From: a virus
Taxonomy: Duplodnaviria > Heunggongvirae > Uroviricota > Caudoviricetes
Length of the DNA stretch: 4,406 nucleotides
Strand: one strand, 5' to 3'
Virus record (IMG/VR): IMGVR_UViG_2703718784_000009
Location: 1-4,406 of that record
Both the position numbers and the translations under genes were made by a program. Shown here piece after piece: positions 402 to 4,406 of the stretch (its first letter is position 1; the number at the start of each line of letters is the position of its first letter). The notes under the pieces are model-generated. The model worked only from the letters and a program-made list of their open reading frames with translations, was not told where the DNA came from and did no database searches.

Positions 402-533
402 TCACCCCAGCATCCCCGACGAAGACAACATCATCCAGCCCAGGGAAAGAAAAATAGCAACCAGCATTAGTGAAAATGAAATGCCGACGATTACACAGAG
501 GATCTTCGCCAGCGTTATGAGCTTGTCTGACAT
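402..533 (-). CDS. hypothetical 43-aa hydrophobic peptide ([43 protein letters not shown])
   Basis: ATG at 533..531 with AGAGGA Shine-Dalgarno 6 nt upstream; stop TGA at 404..402, 7 nt before the Rz start. Almost entirely hydrophobic (one TM helix). Below the 60-aa cutoff of the ORF track. Same frame as the upstream ORF 546..728, separated only by a TGA. Confidence 0.3.
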
Positions 534-545
534 GCTTAATCCTCT

Positions 546-728
546 TCACGATTTCAACGCAATGACCAGTTTTGCCAGTCCATACAGCATCGGAGACACA
601 GCAATACCGACCGCCACCCACTTAATAGCAAAAGCCAGCGCTCTGCTGATGTCATCAGTTACAGGCGCTTTCAGTTCAAGGCCGTTTTTCATAGTCAACC
701 TCAACAGAATTCGTTTATACTTTTCCAT
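546..728 (-). CDS. hypothetical 60-aa small membrane protein, C-terminal TM helix (MEKYKRILLRLTMKNGLELKAPVTDDISRALAFAIKWVAVGIAVSPMLYGLAKLVIALKS)
   Basis: First ATG at 728..726 preceded by AAGGGAGAAC (purine-rich SD). The ORF-track start at 761 is a GTG lying inside the terminator hairpin, so the ATG is preferred. Stop TGA 548..546. Basic N-terminus, hydrophobic C-terminal segment. Confidence 0.45.
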   Translation of the reverse strand: MEKYKRILLRLTMKNGLELKAPVTDDISRALAFAIKWVAVGIAVSPMLYGLAKLVIALKS

Positions 729-761
729 GTTCTCCCTTGCCTTATCCAAGGTCAGAAACAC

Positions 762-884: not shown

Positions 885-1418
885 TTATCTGTCAATTCCC
901 CAGCACGCCAGCGCACTCTCCTGGTCGCGACGGGATACCTGACCGTAACAGTTGTTTGAGCGAATACGGCAGTCTCTGCCACCGTCCTTAATCCACCAGC
1001 GAATCGCTTCGCATGCTCCCCTGCGATCACCTGCATTAATTCGTCTGTAAAACGTCGACGGGAAACACTTACCGGGACCAATGTTGTACGGACAGAATGA
1101 CGCGATCCCCGCTTTCTGGGGTTCGGTCAGCGGCACTCTGATGTTTTTCTCCACCCACGCCAGCGCCTTATCACGCTCAATGGCGTTAACCTGGTCGCAT
1201 TTTTCCTTCGACAACTTCATGCCCGGAACGACAGGTTTGCCATCCACCATGATGGCACCACGGCAGATGGTCCAGATACCTGCACCATCACGGTATGCCG
1301 TGGTGTGGTTACCTTCCTTTTCATCCAGAAACTGGTCGAGAATTTCAGGCGCAGAAGCCCCTGCGGCAATCAGCGCCAGAACGGCAGCCGACAGGCCGTA
1401 TTTGATTTTTGCGTTCAT
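885..1418 (-). CDS. R: endolysin, T4-lysozyme-like muramidase (GH24) with N-terminal signal-arrest-release (SAR) domain
   Basis: 177-aa ORF, ATG 1418..1416, stop TAA 887..885. N-terminal weakly hydrophobic Gly/Ala-rich segment (YGLSAAVLALIAAGASA) typical of SAR endolysins. Catalytic E-x8-D-x5-T spacing present (E..GNHTTAYR D GAGIW T), as in T4 lysozyme and phage 21 R. No strong SD upstream of the ATG. Confidence 0.92.
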   Translation of the reverse strand: MNAKIKYGLSAAVLALIAAGASAPEILDQFLDEKEGNHTTAYRDGAGIWTICRGAIMVDGKPVVPGMKLSKEKCDQVNAIERDKALAWVEKNIRVPLTEPQKAGIASFCPYNIGPGKCFPSTFYRRINAGDRRGACEAIRWWIKDGGRDCRIRSNNCYGQVSRRDQESALACWGIDR

Positions 1419-1529: not shown

Positions 1530-1790
1530 ATGGATTATCCAAATCTACCAAAACAAACTTTTGCTGATTTAATCGCACTCAGGCAAGCAGTCGTAGCTCT
1601 AATCAACGTGTTGCCGGATGAGGAAAAGGAATTAGTTAAAGCAATTCTTAACAGAACTGCCGCCGATTTTTCATCATTCCCACTGACAGATGACCTTGCG
1701 GACCTTCCTGAATTAATTGCAGCGTCCGCCATTAAGCTTACTGAAGAGATTTACTCTCCTCAAAAGCCTTCACAAAATTCCTGCGAGTAA
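1530..1790 (+). CDS. hypothetical 86-aa acidic protein, convergent to the late operon (MDYPNLPKQTFADLIALRQAVVALINVLPDEEKELVKAILNRTAADFSSFPLTDDLADLPELIAASAIKLTEEIYSPQKPSQNSCE)
   Basis: ATG 1530..1532 preceded by GAGGTG (1521..1526); stop TAA 1788..1790; a strong intrinsic terminator follows about 20 nt downstream (1809..1845). Helix-like amphipathic composition; AT-rich codons (about 42% GC by hand count). The longer track ORF 1305..1790 starts at a GTG with no SD. The 3' end overlaps gene 1738..2373 by 53 nt on the opposite strand. Confidence 0.55.
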   Translation: MDYPNLPKQTFADLIALRQAVVALINVLPDEEKELVKAILNRTAADFSSFPLTDDLADLPELIAASAIKLTEEIYSPQKPSQNSCE

Positions 1791-2373
1791 CTTCAATGCA
1801 ATAATCGTAAAACGCCGCGAACTGCTCATCGCGGCGTTTTTCTTCAGGCCGCTGAAGATGCTCTTTCAACCGTGAAGCGCAGCTTAGATGCGCCGCGCGA
1901 TCAAGAATAGTTTCTTTCATTTCATCTGCTGCAAGCACCTCATTTTTTGTTGGGGTGCTTTTTTTCAATTCAGCGATATAGCACTCCAGTTTTTCAATGC
2001 GTGATTCAATATCATCGTTTTCTGACCGCAATGCCGTCGGTGGCGTCTTCAGAGAACCAGTAATTATTCCCGGTAGTTTTCCTCTGTAGGTTATCAACAC
2101 ATCCTGCGCCTCTAAAATTATGGGGCGCTTTTCCGGCGACTGCTCATCCCCTTCACATAAAGCGGCAGCAATATCCATGAAAAACTGCTTCGCCTGTTTT
2201 TTCGCCTCAGCTTCGTAAAATTCCAGCGTGGCACCTTCAGTACGGTCAAGACTAATCGCCACATTTGGCAACAACAGTGACGGATACCCACCAATTTCCA
2301 GTGCCACAGTAACAGTAATCTTATCCGGGTAATTATTTATCCCTTTAACAACCAGTTCGTATTTTTTCTTCAT
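1738..2373 (-). CDS. hypothetical 211-aa soluble protein inserted between holin and endolysin; function unknown
   Basis: ATG 2373..2371 lies 4 nt after the holin stop (TAA 2380..2378) with GGGGAGAG SD inside the holin 3' end, i.e. tight translational coupling. Stop TAA 1740..1738. No TM segment; the C-terminal half looks helical/coiled-coil (DDIESRIEKLECYIAELKK...). I do not recognise the family. Confidence 0.8.
   Translation of the reverse strand: MKKKYELVVKGINNYPDKITVTVALEIGGYPSLLLPNVAISLDRTEGATLEFYEAEAKKQAKQFFMDIAAALCEGDEQSPEKRPIILEAQDVLITYRGKLPGIITGSLKTPPTALRSENDDIESRIEKLECYIAELKKSTPTKNEVLAADEMKETILDRAAHLSCASRLKEHLQRPEEKRRDEQFAAFYDYCIEVTRRNFVKAFEESKSLQ
1809..1845 (+). terminator. intrinsic terminator for the plus-strand ORF 1530..1790, embedded in the coding sequence of the minus-strand gene 1738..2373
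   Basis: AAAACGCCGCGA (1809..1820) pairs perfectly with TCGCGGCGTTTT (1829..1840), 8-nt loop, then TTTTTCTTC. Weaker in the minus direction (followed there by UUUUACG). Confidence 0.6.
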
Positions 2374-2377
2374 CGCT

Positions 2378-2593
2378 TTACTCTCCCCGCGCCGCCTTAC
2401 GCCGGTCCTCTCTGATTTTGAAATACAGGTTAGTCAGATATGTCAGCAGCCCAAACAGCAGACTCCCCAGCACGCCTATTGCCGCCCACTGAGACGGGGA
2501 AACCCTGTCCAGCAACTGCAGGAACCAGTAGCCCGTTCCCACCGCTGACGTGGTGTATGACACACCTGTTGTGATTTTTTCCATCTGGTACAT
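2378..2593 (-). CDS. S: class II holin (pinholin), phage 21 S-like, with dual-start motif
   Basis: 71-aa [74 protein letters not shown]: two TM segments plus charged C-terminal tail; closely resembles S21 / E. coli EssD as I recall them. Two in-frame ATGs (2593 and 2584). GGGAG SD upstream. Confidence 0.9.
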
Positions 2594-2996: not shown

Positions 2997-3179
2997 CTAC
3001 GGAATGAGCGGATCTTCGGGTTTGCTTCCGGCTGACTGACTGGCGCTGATTTTCTCTGCGGCCCTTTTATCAATCTGCCTGCGCCAGAAATCGCGCACTG
3101 CCCTGTACCCACCCGAAAGAAGATACATAACACAGACTGCCGTACAGAAGTACAGCATCACCTGATGAACAAATGTCAT
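2997..3179 (-). CDS. hypothetical 60-aa small membrane protein, N-terminal TM helix and basic tail (MTFVHQVMLYFCTAVCVMYLLSGGYRAVRDFWRRQIDKRAAEKISASQSAGSKPEDPLIP)
   Basis: ATG 3179..3177, stop TAG 2999..2997. No SD of its own, but its ATG overlaps the TGA stop of an upstream 14-codon leader ORF (ATGA overlap), which follows another 14-codon ORF that has a perfect GGAGGT SD (see findings). N-terminal hydrophobic helix with positive residues after it. Confidence 0.45.
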   Translation of the reverse strand: MTFVHQVMLYFCTAVCVMYLLSGGYRAVRDFWRRQIDKRAAEKISASQSAGSKPEDPLIP

Positions 3180-3276: not shown

Positions 3277-3313
3277 CCGCCAGCTTCCGTTCCTGCCGCT
3301 GGCGGCTTTTTTT
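3277..3313 (+). terminator. intrinsic terminator oriented for plus-strand transcription (antisense to the late operon)
   Basis: CCGCCAGC (3277..3284) pairs with GCTGGCGG (3298..3305), 13-nt loop, followed by C plus TTTTTTT (3307..3313). No U-tract in the minus direction, so it is unidirectional. Confidence 0.55.
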
Positions 3314-3318
3314 GCCGG

Positions 3319-4406
3319 TTATGATGATGCCCGGCTTTCGTTAACTTTGACTGTGACCGTATCAAGCAGTACCGGATACGTCGCTTTTGCCCCCGTGATA
3401 TCTGTCAGCGTCAGCGTATCTGCTGTAAAGTCATCATTTGTCCACATCACAAGGTCAAACGCCGTCTGCTCTGTACCATCAATCACCGGAACGACTCTTT
3501 CGCTGTTATTTCCCGCAAAGCGGAAAACAACCGTATGCCAGTTATGGTCAAACGCACCAAATGTACCCAGTTGTGCATTCGACGTGCCCTTGTGGTGCAT
3601 AAGATTCAGATTTGATGCATCCGTCTGAAGGAAGAATGATGCCAGCATACTGTTTGCTGCCGCGCCTGACGCCCACTGCGACACCGGCCAGTAGAGACCA
3701 AAGACAAACTGTCCGTTCACCAGTTCGCTTCCATCCGGAATTTTGAACCGTACGGCAATTTCACCCCCCTTGCTGAGAAGATTTTTTGCCTCCTCCACTG
3801 CAACAGTACGGAACATTTTCCAGGACATCAGTTTACCGGGCTGTTTTTCCAGTCGCAGCGCTTTCCGTCCACCGTCATCAGTCACAGTGCCTTTGCCGCC
3901 GGAAGCACCCCACTGCTGCTCTGTCAATGCACCATTTCCACTGTTCGCATCATATTCAGCCACCGTCCTGGTACTGCTCACGGCCTCATCATGATCAGTA
4001 CCAGCAACACCGCCATCCTGCGGTTTCTCAACATCCGGTGTCCCCGGACTGACAGGAGTTGTACCACCCGACTGCGGTGCGCTCTGCCCGGTAAGGAACG
4101 ATAATGTCCGCCCGGCGTACTGCAAAATGGCACCTGCCAGGCGGTCTGAAACAAGGCCTCTTCGCGCCCATGAACTGAAGTGCGTTTTACGATCGGCTGA
4201 CGTCCAGTTACTGGCAGTGCGTGACGCAGCGCCATAGTATCCCGCCGGGATAATGTCCCGATCTTCTGACGGCTCGTTTGTCGGCACATTCACACCATGC
4301 TCATCCGTCATCAACGGCACAAAGTGAATATTCTGCGCAGCTTTGCCTTTATACCCACCGTAAACCGCCTCATACGGCGCTGCATACCTTTCCTTCCAGT
4401 AGTACG
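3319..4406 (-). CDS. large accessory ORF of unknown function, C-terminal 362 codons only (5' end beyond the right window edge)
   Basis: Stop TAA 3321..3319; frame stays open to position 4406 (the track start at 4320 is a GTG, and the upstream codons ...YYWKERYAAPYEAVYGGYKGKAAQNIHFVPL are stop-free and protein-like). Contains a Gly/Ser/Thr/Pro-rich linker followed by a beta-rich C-terminal domain (FGLYWPVSQW...WHTVVFRFAGNNSERVVPVIDG...), possibly jelly-roll/lectin-like. It sits upstream of the holin in the operon; the antiterminator Q is not in the window. Confidence 0.85.
   Translation of the reverse strand, partial: YYWKERYAAPYEAVYGGYKGKAAQNIHFVPLMTDEHGVNVPTNEPSEDRDIIPAGYYGAASRTASNWTSADRKTHFSSWARRGLVSDRLAGAILQYAGRTLSFLTGQSAPQSGGTTPVSPGTPDVEKPQDGGVAGTDHDEAVSSTRTVAEYDANSGNGALTEQQWGASGGKGTVTDDGGRKALRLEKQPGKLMSWKMFRTVAVEEAKNLLSKGGEIAVRFKIPDGSELVNGQFVFGLYWPVSQWASGAAANSMLASFFLQTDASNLNLMHHKGTSNAQLGTFGAFDHNWHTVVFRFAGNNSERVVPVIDGTEQTAFDLVMWTNDDFTADTLTLTDITGAKATYPVLLDTVTVKVNESRASS

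What the first reader, a model, noticed from the sequence alone, without database searches (positions are those of the whole stretch)
3319..4406. Large accessory ORF with low-complexity linker and beta-rich, possibly lectin-like C-terminal domain upstream of the lysis genes
The region upstream of the holin in lambdoid phages is a classic site for lysogenic-conversion cargo (Shiga toxin genes and esterases in Stx phages). The partial ORF here ends with a Gly/Ser/Thr/Pro-rich linker followed by a roughly 200-aa beta-rich domain (…GQFVFGLYWPVSQW…FDHNWHTVVFRFAGNNSERVVPVIDG…), suggesting a secreted or surface-acting carbohydrate-binding or hydrolytic protein. Its identity cannot be settled from this fragment, and the N-terminal part is outside the window.
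Basis: partly seen in the sequence, partly recalled or inferred. Interest (0 to 1): 0.4.

Follow-up and report, generated by a model that had tools for sequence, protein, structure and literature searches.

The report
Prophage sialic-acid esterase (NanS-p) tail end
The fragment is the back half of a well-known prophage enzyme (NanS-p) that strips acetyl groups from gut-mucus sialic acids and carries a sugar-binding "lectin" module at its end; it is a rare allele of an ordinary, already described gene.

Summary
An ORF on the minus strand is open from 4404 to a TAA stop at 3321-3319 (361 codons) and runs off the right edge of the window.

It is the C-terminal 55% of a roughly 660-aa NanS-p-type sialate O-acetylesterase of lambdoid E. 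coli prophages. It has three parts:
- The last 96 residues of the NanS-like SGNH catalytic domain (PDB 3PT5, E 8e-23), including the catalytic-His block RKTHFS.
- A 50-aa Gly/Thr/Ser/Pro-rich linker.
- A roughly 210-aa jelly-roll domain, Pfam DUF6645. It matches PDB 6YP6, the C-terminal domain of phi24B vb_24B_21, at E 7e-50. An AlphaFold model matches 6YP6 at TM 0.87. The next-best folds are lectins, the first being the sialic-acid-binding domain of V. cholerae sialidase.

Relatives 97-98% identical in DNA (phage PhiR5_1, E. coli NCTC9112) are intact 662-aa proteins with DUF1737, SASA and DUF6645 domains. RefSeq calls them "SASA family carbohydrate esterase". Gene order matches Stx phages: nanS-p, DUF1378, DUF826, holin, endolysin, Rz.

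Two caveats apply. This C-terminal allele is rare (36 of 5426 complete genomes, about 45% identical to Stx-phage NanS-p) and untested. A 2026 preprint reports that the phi24B homologue decorates the capsid, so "pure cargo" is not certain.

Already known; low interest.

The parts
3319..4406 (-). Partial CDS: the C-terminal 361 codons plus stop of a NanS-p-type sialate O-acetylesterase. The 5' end, about 300 codons, lies beyond the window edge. The reading frame starts at 4404.
   Evidence: Open frame. PHROG 143 positions 294-632 of 634, E 3e-117. 98% DNA identity to the 662-aa gene of phage PhiR5_1 and 97% to a RefSeq 'SASA family carbohydrate esterase' in E. coli NCTC9112.
4117..4404 (-). Last 96 residues of the NanS-like SGNH (SASA) catalytic domain.
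   Evidence: Aligns to 3PT5 (NanS/YjhS) chain residues 240-333, E 8e-23.
4180..4182 (-). Codon CAC for His75 of the fragment, in the motif R-K-T-H-F-S. This is the SGNH catalytic-base block, equivalent to NanS His301.
   Evidence: Alignment to 3PT5. The 3PT5 block is listed as 'R[1]SHFS 303' in PMC10792757. The RSSH/RASH block is described for NanS and NanS-p in PMC10462455. Codon checked.
3967..4116 (-). Interdomain linker of about 50 aa, rich in Gly/Thr/Ser/Pro (…LTGQSAPQSGGTTPVSPGTPDVEKPQDGGVAGTDHDEAVSSTR).
   Evidence: Composition. It is the most divergent and indel-prone segment among homologues. In phi24B gp84 the equivalent linker is the reported autoproteolysis site.
3340..3966 (-). 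[quoted passage not shown] The Pfam DUF6645 core is at nt 3451-3777.
   Evidence: 6YP6 E 7e-50. Pfam PF20350 E 3e-33. AF2 model pLDDT 83.7. Foldseek 6YP6 TM 0.87, rmsd 2.1 A, 45% identity, followed by lectin folds.
3427..3708 (-). Span holding the four aromatic positions equivalent to the proposed sugar-binding site of vb_24B_21 (Y510, Y515, Y540, F611). In this fragment they are F233 (3706-3708), Y238 (3691-3693), F258 (3631-3633) and F326 (3427-3429).
   Evidence: Alignment A2. Residue list from PMC10462455. Codons checked.
3319..3321 (-). TAA stop codon of the esterase gene.
2997..3179 (-). Context: DUF1378 small membrane protein gene, immediately downstream as in Stx phages.
   Evidence: Pfam PF07125 E 2e-37. 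Same order in phage TL-2011c.
2669..2959 (-). Context: DUF826 gene.
   Evidence: Pfam PF05696 E 7e-29. Same order in TL-2011c.
2378..2593 (-). Context: P21-type (class II) holin S.
   Evidence: Pfam PF04971 E 9e-33.
885..1418 (-). Context: endolysin R (phage lysozyme).
   Evidence: Pfam PF00959 E 3e-24.

Best explanation
The ORF is the 3' part of a nanS-p gene, the prophage-borne sialate O-acetylesterase of lambdoid E. coli phages. It sits in the late operon between the Q/moron region and the lysis cassette.

**Architecture.** The whole protein is about 660 aa. It has an N-terminal DUF1737 domain, an SGNH/SASA esterase domain homologous to chromosomal NanS, a flexible linker, and a C-terminal lectin-like jelly-roll module. 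The window holds the end of the esterase domain with the catalytic-His block, the linker, and the whole lectin-like module.

**Mechanism (inferred from characterised homologues).**
- The gene is transcribed with the late genes after prophage induction.
- The Ser/His SGNH site removes 9-O-acetyl groups from Neu5,9Ac2 on mucin glycans or free sialic acid.
- The protein reaches the outside of the cell through phage lysis. It may also travel attached to the capsid through DUF1737, as reported for phi24B.

**Shown versus inferred.** Shown here: homology, domain boundaries, retained catalytic His and aromatic site, fold, and gene context. Inferred: substrate, timing of expression, and localisation.
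For: - **Sequence.** 3PT5 NanS E 8e-23 over residues 1-96, and 6YP6 'NanS-p' C-terminal domain E 7e-50 over residues 147-355. Pfam DUF6645 E 3e-33. PHROG 143 E 3e-117.
- **Full-length relatives.** At 97-98% DNA identity they are intact 662-aa proteins with DUF1737 (3-50), SASA (81-276) and DUF6645 (511-619). They hit 3PT5 at E 1.6e-114.
- **Catalytic block.** The His block is retained as RKTHFS.
- **Binding site.** All four aromatic positions of the proposed binding site are retained as aromatic: F, Y, F, F.
- **Fold.** The AF2 model matches 6YP6 at TM 0.87. Next come the V. cholerae sialidase sialic-acid-binding lectin domain (TM 0.61-0.69), calreticulin, ERGIC-53, VIP36 and legume lectins.
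- **Synteny.** Same order as the Stx phage TL-2011c: Q, stx, nanS-p, DUF1378, DUF826, holin, lysozyme, Rz.
- **Distribution.** 347 phage records carry a homologue, mostly Stx-converting phages.
[quoted passage not shown] The C-terminal domain is described as a lectin-like jelly-roll putative carbohydrate-binding module.
- **Selection.** dN/dS is about 0.14 against TL-2011c.
Against: - The N-terminal 300 residues, with the nucleophile Ser (GQSN) and DUF1737, are outside the window. Intactness of this copy is inferred from relatives.
- This C-terminal allele is only about 45-50% identical to the crystallised and assayed NanS-p proteins. It has never been tested, so its glycan specificity could differ.
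- According to the review read here, carbohydrate binding by the C-terminal domain has not been demonstrated experimentally for any NanS-p (PMC8065619).
- The nearest relatives are non-Stx prophages, so a virulence link is not implied.
Confidence: 0.9

Rival explanations
1. The protein is primarily a virion structural protein, not lysogen-benefit cargo. It would be a capsid decoration protein anchored by DUF1737 that displays the esterase and lectin module on the phage head. That would let the phage stick to, or move through, sialylated mucus, in the manner of Hoc-type mucus adherence. Later cleavage in the linker would release the C-terminal module.
For: - The phi24B cryo-EM and proteomics preprint reports gp84 (NanS-p family) as an abundant virion protein. 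A DUF1737 hexamer sits on the central hexons, and the protein is cleaved between the catalytic and C-terminal domains on storage.
- In 34 nanS-p loci with enough downstream sequence, the DUF1737 loop variant follows the head/packaging module. The C-terminal allele, which lies between them, is shuffled. Variant A goes with the P22-like-portal module in 5 of 6 loci, and variant C with the ClpP-MCP module in 12 of 12.
- The window-type C-terminal allele occurs with variant B plus a lambda head (L001, L002), and with variant A plus the terminase type that clusters with the P22-portal-module loci (L004).
- A protein with DUF1737 fused directly to DUF6645, without an esterase, exists (P0012).
Against: - This is a single preprint on one podovirus with a T=9 capsid.
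- The window's nearest relatives have lambda-type heads with their own gpD decoration protein.
- DUF1737 variant B is shared unchanged by at least two head types, lambda gpE-type and HK97-like with an S78 protease. That argues against tight co-adaptation.
- The loci are not phylogenetically independent.
- This reading is compatible with the best explanation rather than exclusive of it.
Confidence: 0.3
2. The enzyme acts on bacterial surface polysaccharide. It would remove O-acetyl groups from O-antigen, or from O-acetylated polysialic acid or other capsules, to help phage adsorption or release. The lectin module would target that polysaccharide, by analogy with phage tailspike esterases.
For: - This is raised as an open possibility in the review PMC8065619.
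- The C-terminal module is highly variable between alleles, at 42-52% identity. Receptor- or glycan-recognition modules under diversifying pressure behave that way.
- If virion-borne, the enzyme would meet the host surface.
Against: - No experimental support was found in the papers read.
- The only activities reported there are on Neu5,9Ac2 and mucin glycans.
- The catalytic domain is closely related to the sialate-specific NanS (E 1.6e-114 for the full-length relative).
- The best non-family structural neighbour of the C-terminal module is a sialic-acid-binding lectin domain.
- Location on the capsid rather than the tail is a poor position for receptor processing.
Confidence: 0.07
3. The copy in this window is a decaying remnant: a truncated or frameshifted pseudogene in a cryptic prophage, with no function.
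For: - The 5' half is not visible.
- Truncated or frameshifted DUF6645-containing fragments are common in databases (P0002, P0003, P0005). IS-disrupted alleles are known (PMC10462455; phage Stx2 II).
- dN/dS against the nearest alleles is near or above 1, but it rests on very few substitutions.
Against: - The frame is open for all 361 visible codons.
- The catalytic His and the fold-defining residues are intact.
- The flanking lysis genes are intact.
- Relatives at 97-99% identity are full length, and one comes from an isolated, plaque-forming phage, PhiR5_1.
Confidence: 0.05

Closest known systems
vb_24B_21 / gp84 of Stx phage phi24B and L0105 (z1466) NanS-p of phage 933W (C-terminal domain structure PDB 6YP6)
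   Same: - Same three-domain architecture in full-length relatives: DUF1737, SASA esterase, lectin-like jelly roll.
- Same position upstream of DUF1378, DUF826 and holin.
- Same fold for the C-terminal domain: TM 0.87, rmsd 2.1 A.
- His block retained, and the binding-site positions are all still aromatic.
   Different: - Only about 45% identical over the 361 residues, and about 50% in the C-terminal domain.
- The linker is longer and unrelated in sequence. It lacks the 'SSP' motif proposed for autoproteolysis and has TTP/VSP instead.
- Two of the four site residues are Phe instead of Tyr.
- The nearest relatives sit in non-Stx prophages with lambda-type heads.
E. coli chromosomal NanS (YjhS), 9-O-acetyl-N-acetylneuraminate esterase (PDB 3PT5)
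   Same: The SGNH catalytic domain is homologous: E 1.6e-114 for the full-length relative and E 8e-23 for the part in the window. The GQSN and R-x-[ST]-H-F-S blocks are conserved.
   Different: NanS is a single-domain protein. It lacks the DUF1737 N-domain, the linker and the lectin-like C-terminal domain that make up most of this fragment.
Sialic-acid-binding lectin domain of Vibrio cholerae sialidase (PDB 2W68) and other concanavalin-A-like lectin jelly rolls (calreticulin, ERGIC-53, VIP36, legume lectins)
   Same: Same general beta-sandwich fold: Foldseek E 5e-8, TM 0.61-0.69. It is likewise an accessory glycan-binding module attached to a sialic-acid-processing enzyme.
   Different: Sequence identity is 14-15% and rmsd about 6 A. 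No sequence-level membership was shown and the binding-site residues were not compared. This is a resemblance of fold and role only.
Capsid decoration proteins that display glycan-binding domains (T4 Hoc is the comparison made in the phi24B preprint)
   Same: This is a possible working analogy. An outward-facing module on the head may bind mucin glycans.
   Different: The fold and anchor are unrelated, and it carries an enzyme. Virion association is untested for this allele and for lambda-type heads.

Membership tests
NanS-p (prophage-borne sialate O-acetylesterase) | SGNH/SASA catalytic domain homologous to E. coli NanS | tested here: met
   Fragment residues 1-96 align to 3PT5 residues 240-333, E 8e-23. 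Relatives 97-98% identical in DNA match 3PT5 over residues 74-394 at E 1.6e-114 and Pfam SASA at E 2e-10.
NanS-p (prophage-borne sialate O-acetylesterase) | Catalytic His block (R-x-[ST]-H-F-S; NanS His301) | tested here: met
   The fragment has RKTHFS with His75 (nt 4180-4182) aligned to the SHFS block of 3PT5. Known variants are RSSH, RASH and RPTH.
NanS-p (prophage-borne sialate O-acetylesterase) | Nucleophile Ser in block I (GQSN) | not testable with these tools
   It lies outside the window. It is present (AGQSNS) in PhiR5_1, NCTC9112 and KY177 relatives.
NanS-p (prophage-borne sialate O-acetylesterase) | C-terminal lectin-like jelly-roll domain (6YP6 / Pfam DUF6645) | tested here: met
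   6YP6 E 7e-50. PF20350 at 114.7 bits against a cutoff of 27. Model against 6YP6: TM 0.87.
NanS-p (prophage-borne sialate O-acetylesterase) | Aromatic residues of the proposed carbohydrate site (Y510, Y515, Y540, F611 in vb_24B_21) | tested here: met
   The aligned residues are F233, Y238, F258 and F326. All are aromatic; two are identical and two are Tyr to Phe. Loss of two hydroxyls could change specificity.
NanS-p (prophage-borne sialate O-acetylesterase) | N-terminal DUF1737 domain | not testable with these tools
   It lies outside the window. It is present in close relatives (Pfam PF08410 E 1e-15).
NanS-p (prophage-borne sialate O-acetylesterase) | Location in the late region of a lambdoid prophage, between Q/moron and holin S | tested here: met
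   The downstream side is in the window: DUF1378, DUF826, P21 holin, lysozyme, Rz. The order is the same in TL-2011c. The upstream side is seen only in relatives: Q in L001; tRNAs, TerB and DUF3927 in L002.
NanS-p (prophage-borne sialate O-acetylesterase) | Esterase activity on Neu5,9Ac2 or O-acetylated mucin glycans | not testable with these tools
   Reported for other alleles (PMC8065619). This allele has not been assayed.
DUF1737-anchored capsid decoration protein (phi24B gp84 type) | Presence in the virion, with the DUF1737 hexamer bound to capsid hexons | not testable with these tools
   Known only from the phi24B preprint. The N-domain is outside the window and there are no virion data for this allele.
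DUF1737-anchored capsid decoration protein (phi24B gp84 type) | N-domain variant co-varies with capsid/head module | tested here: inconclusive
   Variants A and C each track one head module (5 of 6 and 12 of 12). Variant B, the type in the window's nearest relatives, occurs with lambda-type, HK97-type and once ClpP-MCP modules. The loci are not independent.
Sialic-acid-binding lectin domain of the V. cholerae sialidase type | Fold and sequence membership, with conserved sialic-acid-binding residues | tested here: inconclusive
   Fold similarity only: 2W68 TM 0.61-0.69 at 14-15% identity. There was no Pfam hit other than DUF6645. Binding residues were not compared.

The most novel reading that the evidence does not exclude
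The NanS-p family may be a modular capsid-display system. DUF1737 would be the head anchor, matched to the capsid type. The C-terminal lectin module would be a freely exchanged targeting cassette, and the rare allele in this window would redirect lambda-type virions, or the released enzyme, to a different O-acetylated glycan than the Stx-phage alleles.

The evidence does not exclude this. The same C-terminal allele sits behind two different DUF1737 variants, each with a different packaging or head module. DUF1737-DUF6645 fusions without an esterase also exist. Two binding-site Tyr residues are Phe in this allele.
Probability: 0.2. Interest if true: 0.45.

Novelty: already known. Interest (0 to 1): 0.15.

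Why it matters
As found, it matters little. It adds one more nanS-p gene, in its usual place in a lambdoid prophage. Near-identical copies are already in RefSeq and in an isolated phage genome.

Its modest value is as a divergent, rare C-terminal allele. It occurs in 36 of 5426 complete E. coli genomes and in no Stx phage of the collection searched. It could be used to ask two questions. Do the lectin-like modules of NanS-p set glycan specificity? Does the capsid-decoration role reported for phi24B extend to lambda-type heads?

Tried and rejected
- **NCBIfam.** The scan gave only noise: LysJ at E 0.015, far below cutoff.
- **Indexed protein search.** Searching with the C-terminal domain returned only 7 proteins, all partial or only 130-354 aa. 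It was too shallow to describe the family. The exhaustive representative search was used instead and showed the domain family is small, 29 clusters.
- **dN/dS among close alleles.** It rests on too few substitutions to interpret, with ratios of 0.5-2.5. Only the distant comparison is informative, and there dS is saturated.
- **PADLOC.** A scan of the neighbouring small genes (DUF1327, the antisense 86-aa ORF, the two ORFs between R and Rz, DUF826, DUF1378) found nothing, so a defence-system reading of the neighbourhood was dropped.
- **Shiga-toxin link.** I considered one. The closest relatives carry no stx: L001 has small hypothetical genes and L002 has tRNAs, TerB and DUF3927 upstream. The window does not reach that region.
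- **Papers not held.** Rangarajan 2011, Saile 2016 and Feuerbaum 2018 could not be read. Franke 2020 was not found in the library. Their content is cited only through papers that quote them.
- **First Python attempt.** It failed on a file name and was rerun.
Full report
**1. The observation**

The window is a lambdoid late/lysis region whose main genes, apart from one small ORF (section 7), read on the minus strand. The frame 4404->3322 is open for 361 codons, ends at TAA (3321-3319) and runs off the right edge.

A low-complexity linker is present. It spans residues 97-146 and reaches 60% G/S/T/P in a 30-aa window, against 31% overall. A C-terminal domain of about 210 aa follows.

On the minus strand the downstream genes are DUF1378 (3179-2997), DUF826 (2959-2669), a P21-type holin (2593-2378), a DUF1327/YdfR-family gene (2373-1738), lysozyme (1418-885) and Rz (391-2, partial). 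The description and coordinates are therefore correct.

**2. What it is**

- **Family hits.** The fragment hits Pfam DUF6645 (PF20350, E 3e-33, residues 210-318) and PHROG 143 over positions 294-632 of 634 (E 3e-117).
- **Solved structures.** Residues 1-96 align to E. coli NanS/YjhS, the 9-O-acetyl-N-acetylneuraminate esterase (3PT5, E 8e-23). Residues 147-355 align to 6YP6, deposited as "NanS-p" (E 7e-50). [quoted passage not shown]
- **Close relatives.** The DNA is 98% identical to a 1989-nt gene of Escherichia phage PhiR5_1. The whole window is 97% identical to a prophage of E. coli NCTC9112, where RefSeq names the gene "SASA family carbohydrate esterase".
- **Full-length architecture.** The PhiR5_1 protein (662 aa) has DUF1737 (3-50), SASA (81-276) and DUF6645 (511-619). 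It matches 3PT5 over residues 74-394 at E 1.6e-114. [quoted passage not shown]
- **Synteny.** Stx2 phage TL-2011c has the order Q, stxA, stxB, SASA esterase, a small ORF, DUF1378, DUF826, holin, lysozyme, Rz. The window shows the same order from the esterase onward.
- **Distribution.** By tblastn, 347 phage records carry a homologue, most of them Stx-converting phages.

**3. Anatomy inside the window**

- **Catalytic tail (nt 4404-4117).** It contains R-K-T-H-F-S, with His75 (CAC, 4182-4180) aligned to the SHFS block of 3PT5. That block ends at residue 303, so the His is His301 (PMC10792757). Pascal et al. describe the same block as RSSH/RASH, with RPTH in phage 86. RKTH is another variant that keeps the His. 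[quoted passage not shown] The nucleophile Ser (GQSN) lies outside the window but is present in all close relatives.
- **Linker (4116-3967).** This is the most divergent segment. It differs by a 3-aa indel even from PhiR5_1, and it cannot be aligned reliably with TL-2011c.
- **C-terminal domain (3966-3340).** An AlphaFold2 model built from a 5-sequence alignment has pLDDT 83.7 and pTM 0.86, with 14 strands and one helix.
  - Foldseek against the PDB puts 6YP6 first: E 5e-23, TM 0.87, rmsd 2.1 A, 45% identity.
  - Next comes the sialic-acid-binding lectin domain of V. cholerae sialidase (2W68, TM 0.61-0.69).
  - After that come calreticulin lectin domains, botulinum toxin/NTNH jelly rolls, a phage Dit carbohydrate-binding module, ERGIC-53, VIP36 and legume lectins.
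- **Proposed sugar site.** The four aromatic residues proposed for vb_24B_21 (Y510, Y515, Y540, F611; PMC10462455) correspond here to F233, Y238, F258 and F326.

**4. How it most likely works**

All of this is inferred from characterised homologues.

- nanS-p is a late gene whose expression rises under inducing conditions (PMC10462455; PMC8065619).
- All tested NanS-p alleles of EDL933 and of O104:H4, including those in non-Stx prophages, are reported to be active Neu5,9Ac2 esterases. They also de-O-acetylate mucin O-glycans, and lysogens can then grow on Neu5,9Ac2.
[quoted passage not shown] The same review says there is no experimental evidence for this yet.

**5. A complication worth stating**

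A 2026 bioRxiv preprint on phi24B reports three things:
- gp84, a NanS-p family protein, is an abundant virion protein.
- Its DUF1737 domain forms hexamers on the central hexons of a T=9 capsid.
- The protein is cleaved between the catalytic and C-terminal domains on storage.

It does not change the esterase/lectin assignment.

I ran a rough test of this idea on 84 nanS-p loci: 80 IMG/VR loci plus L001-L004.

- **DUF1737 variants.** DUF1737 has three loop variants.
- **Variants A and C.** Among the 34 loci with at least 6 kb downstream:

| DUF1737 variant | Head/packaging module found downstream | Loci |
|---|---|---|
| A (phi24B type) | P22-like-portal module | 5 of 6 |
| C | gpA terminase, lambda portal, ClpP-MCP fusion | 12 of 12 |

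- **Variant B.** This is the type in the window's nearest relatives. It goes with lambda gpA/gpB/gpC/gpD/gpE modules in 9 loci, HK97-like modules in 4, and the ClpP-MCP module in 1.
- **C-terminal alleles are shuffled.**
  - The phi24B-type C-terminal cluster occurs with all three N-variants.
  - The window-type C-terminal allele occurs with variant B plus a lambda head (L001, L002).
  - It also occurs with variant A in L004, which holds only 5 kb downstream; its terminase clusters with those of the P22-like-portal-module loci.

This fits an anchor that follows the head type and a cassette-like C-terminus. It is only suggestive, because the loci are not independent and variant B is not head-specific.

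**6. How common, and how new**

- The DUF6645 domain family is small: 29 clusters at 50% identity among 1.84 billion representatives. Some members have other architectures, for example DUF1737 fused directly to DUF6645 without an esterase (P0012), or an extra C-terminal domain (P0013, P0017, P0019, P0028).
- This particular C-terminal allele is in 36 of 5426 complete E. coli genomes.
- By tblastn, one phage record (PhiR5_1) is at least 95% identical, five are 80-90% and one is 60-80%. The other 340, including every Stx-converting phage listed, are below 60% and mostly about 45%. By DNA search, PhiR5_1 and five PhiR12-series phages match at 92-98%.
- The allele is rare and has not been assayed, but the gene kind, its architecture, its fold and its position are all published and annotated.

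Verdict: already known, with low interest.

**7. Other things seen**

- A YdfR/DUF1327-family gene of 211 aa, together with a convergent 86-aa ORF, sits between holin and endolysin. These two genes are adjacent in TL-2011c and KY177.
- Two small hydrophobic ORFs and a strong hairpin lie between R and Rz.
- A plus-strand terminator-like hairpin abuts the esterase stop codon.
- None of these matched PADLOC defence models.

Noticed in passing
window 1738-2373 (-) and 1530-1790 (+): A 211-aa DUF1327/YdfR-family gene lies between holin S and endolysin R. Pfam covers only its first 112 residues, and the C-terminal ~100 aa have no family. A convergent 86-aa ORF on the plus strand overlaps its 3' end by about 50 nt. 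In TL-2011c and E. coli KY177 the holin and lysozyme genes are adjacent, and in NCTC9112 the YdfR gene is annotated as a pseudogene. Neither ORF has a PADLOC hit, and the 86-aa ORF has no Pfam hit.
   Followed up: partly
window 402-533 (-), 546-761 (-), hairpin 794-762 (-): Two small hydrophobic ORFs (43 and 71 aa) with no Pfam or PADLOC hit lie between endolysin R and Rz. RefSeq annotates them as hypothetical. A 14-bp-stem terminator-like hairpin precedes them, directly after R. PhiR5_1 has a different, larger insert at this position: a 231-aa hypothetical protein.
   Followed up: partly
window 3278-3315 (+): A GC-rich hairpin followed by CTTTTTTTG on the plus strand sits immediately 3' of the esterase stop codon. 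It is oriented to stop transcription running antisense to the late genes. On the coding (minus) strand the A-run precedes the hairpin, so it is not a classical terminator for the esterase transcript.
   Followed up: no
L001-L084 (nanS-p loci; N-terminal ~60 codons and 3-10 kb downstream): The DUF1737 N-domain has three loop variants (STAGYGAEF, ITPYTLMQ, SYTDDGAAL). They largely follow the downstream head/packaging module: P22-like portal; lambda-type or HK97-type; ClpP-MCP fusion. The C-terminal lectin allele, which lies between them, is shuffled. This fits DUF1737 as a capsid anchor, but the loci are not independent and one variant serves several head types.
   Followed up: partly
P0012, P0013, P0017, P0019, P0028: The DUF6645 lectin-like domain also occurs in other architectures. 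In P0012 it is fused directly to DUF1737 with no esterase. In P0019 it sits behind what look like two DUF1737-like repeats. In several proteins it is followed by an extra conserved domain of about 90 aa (…DVSSYVYFP…GGK…PD…). Their genomic contexts were not examined.
   Followed up: no
window 4054-4062 (-) and L001 N-linker: The phi24B preprint points to 'SSP' motifs in both interdomain linkers of gp84 as candidate autoproteolysis sites. The window-type protein has no SSP. It has 'TTP' in both linkers instead: GDVTTPVVV after DUF1737 in PhiR5_1, and GGTTPVSPG in the window. KY177 has VLTP in the first linker, so the pattern may simply reflect linker composition.
   Followed up: no
L002 12796-13808; L004 7582-10697: The moron slot upstream of nanS-p, where stx sits in Stx phages, holds different cargo in relatives of this window. 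NCTC9112 has tRNA-Ile/Arg/Arg plus a TerB-family protein and DUF3927. KY177 has a type I restriction-modification HsdM/HsdS pair.
   Followed up: no
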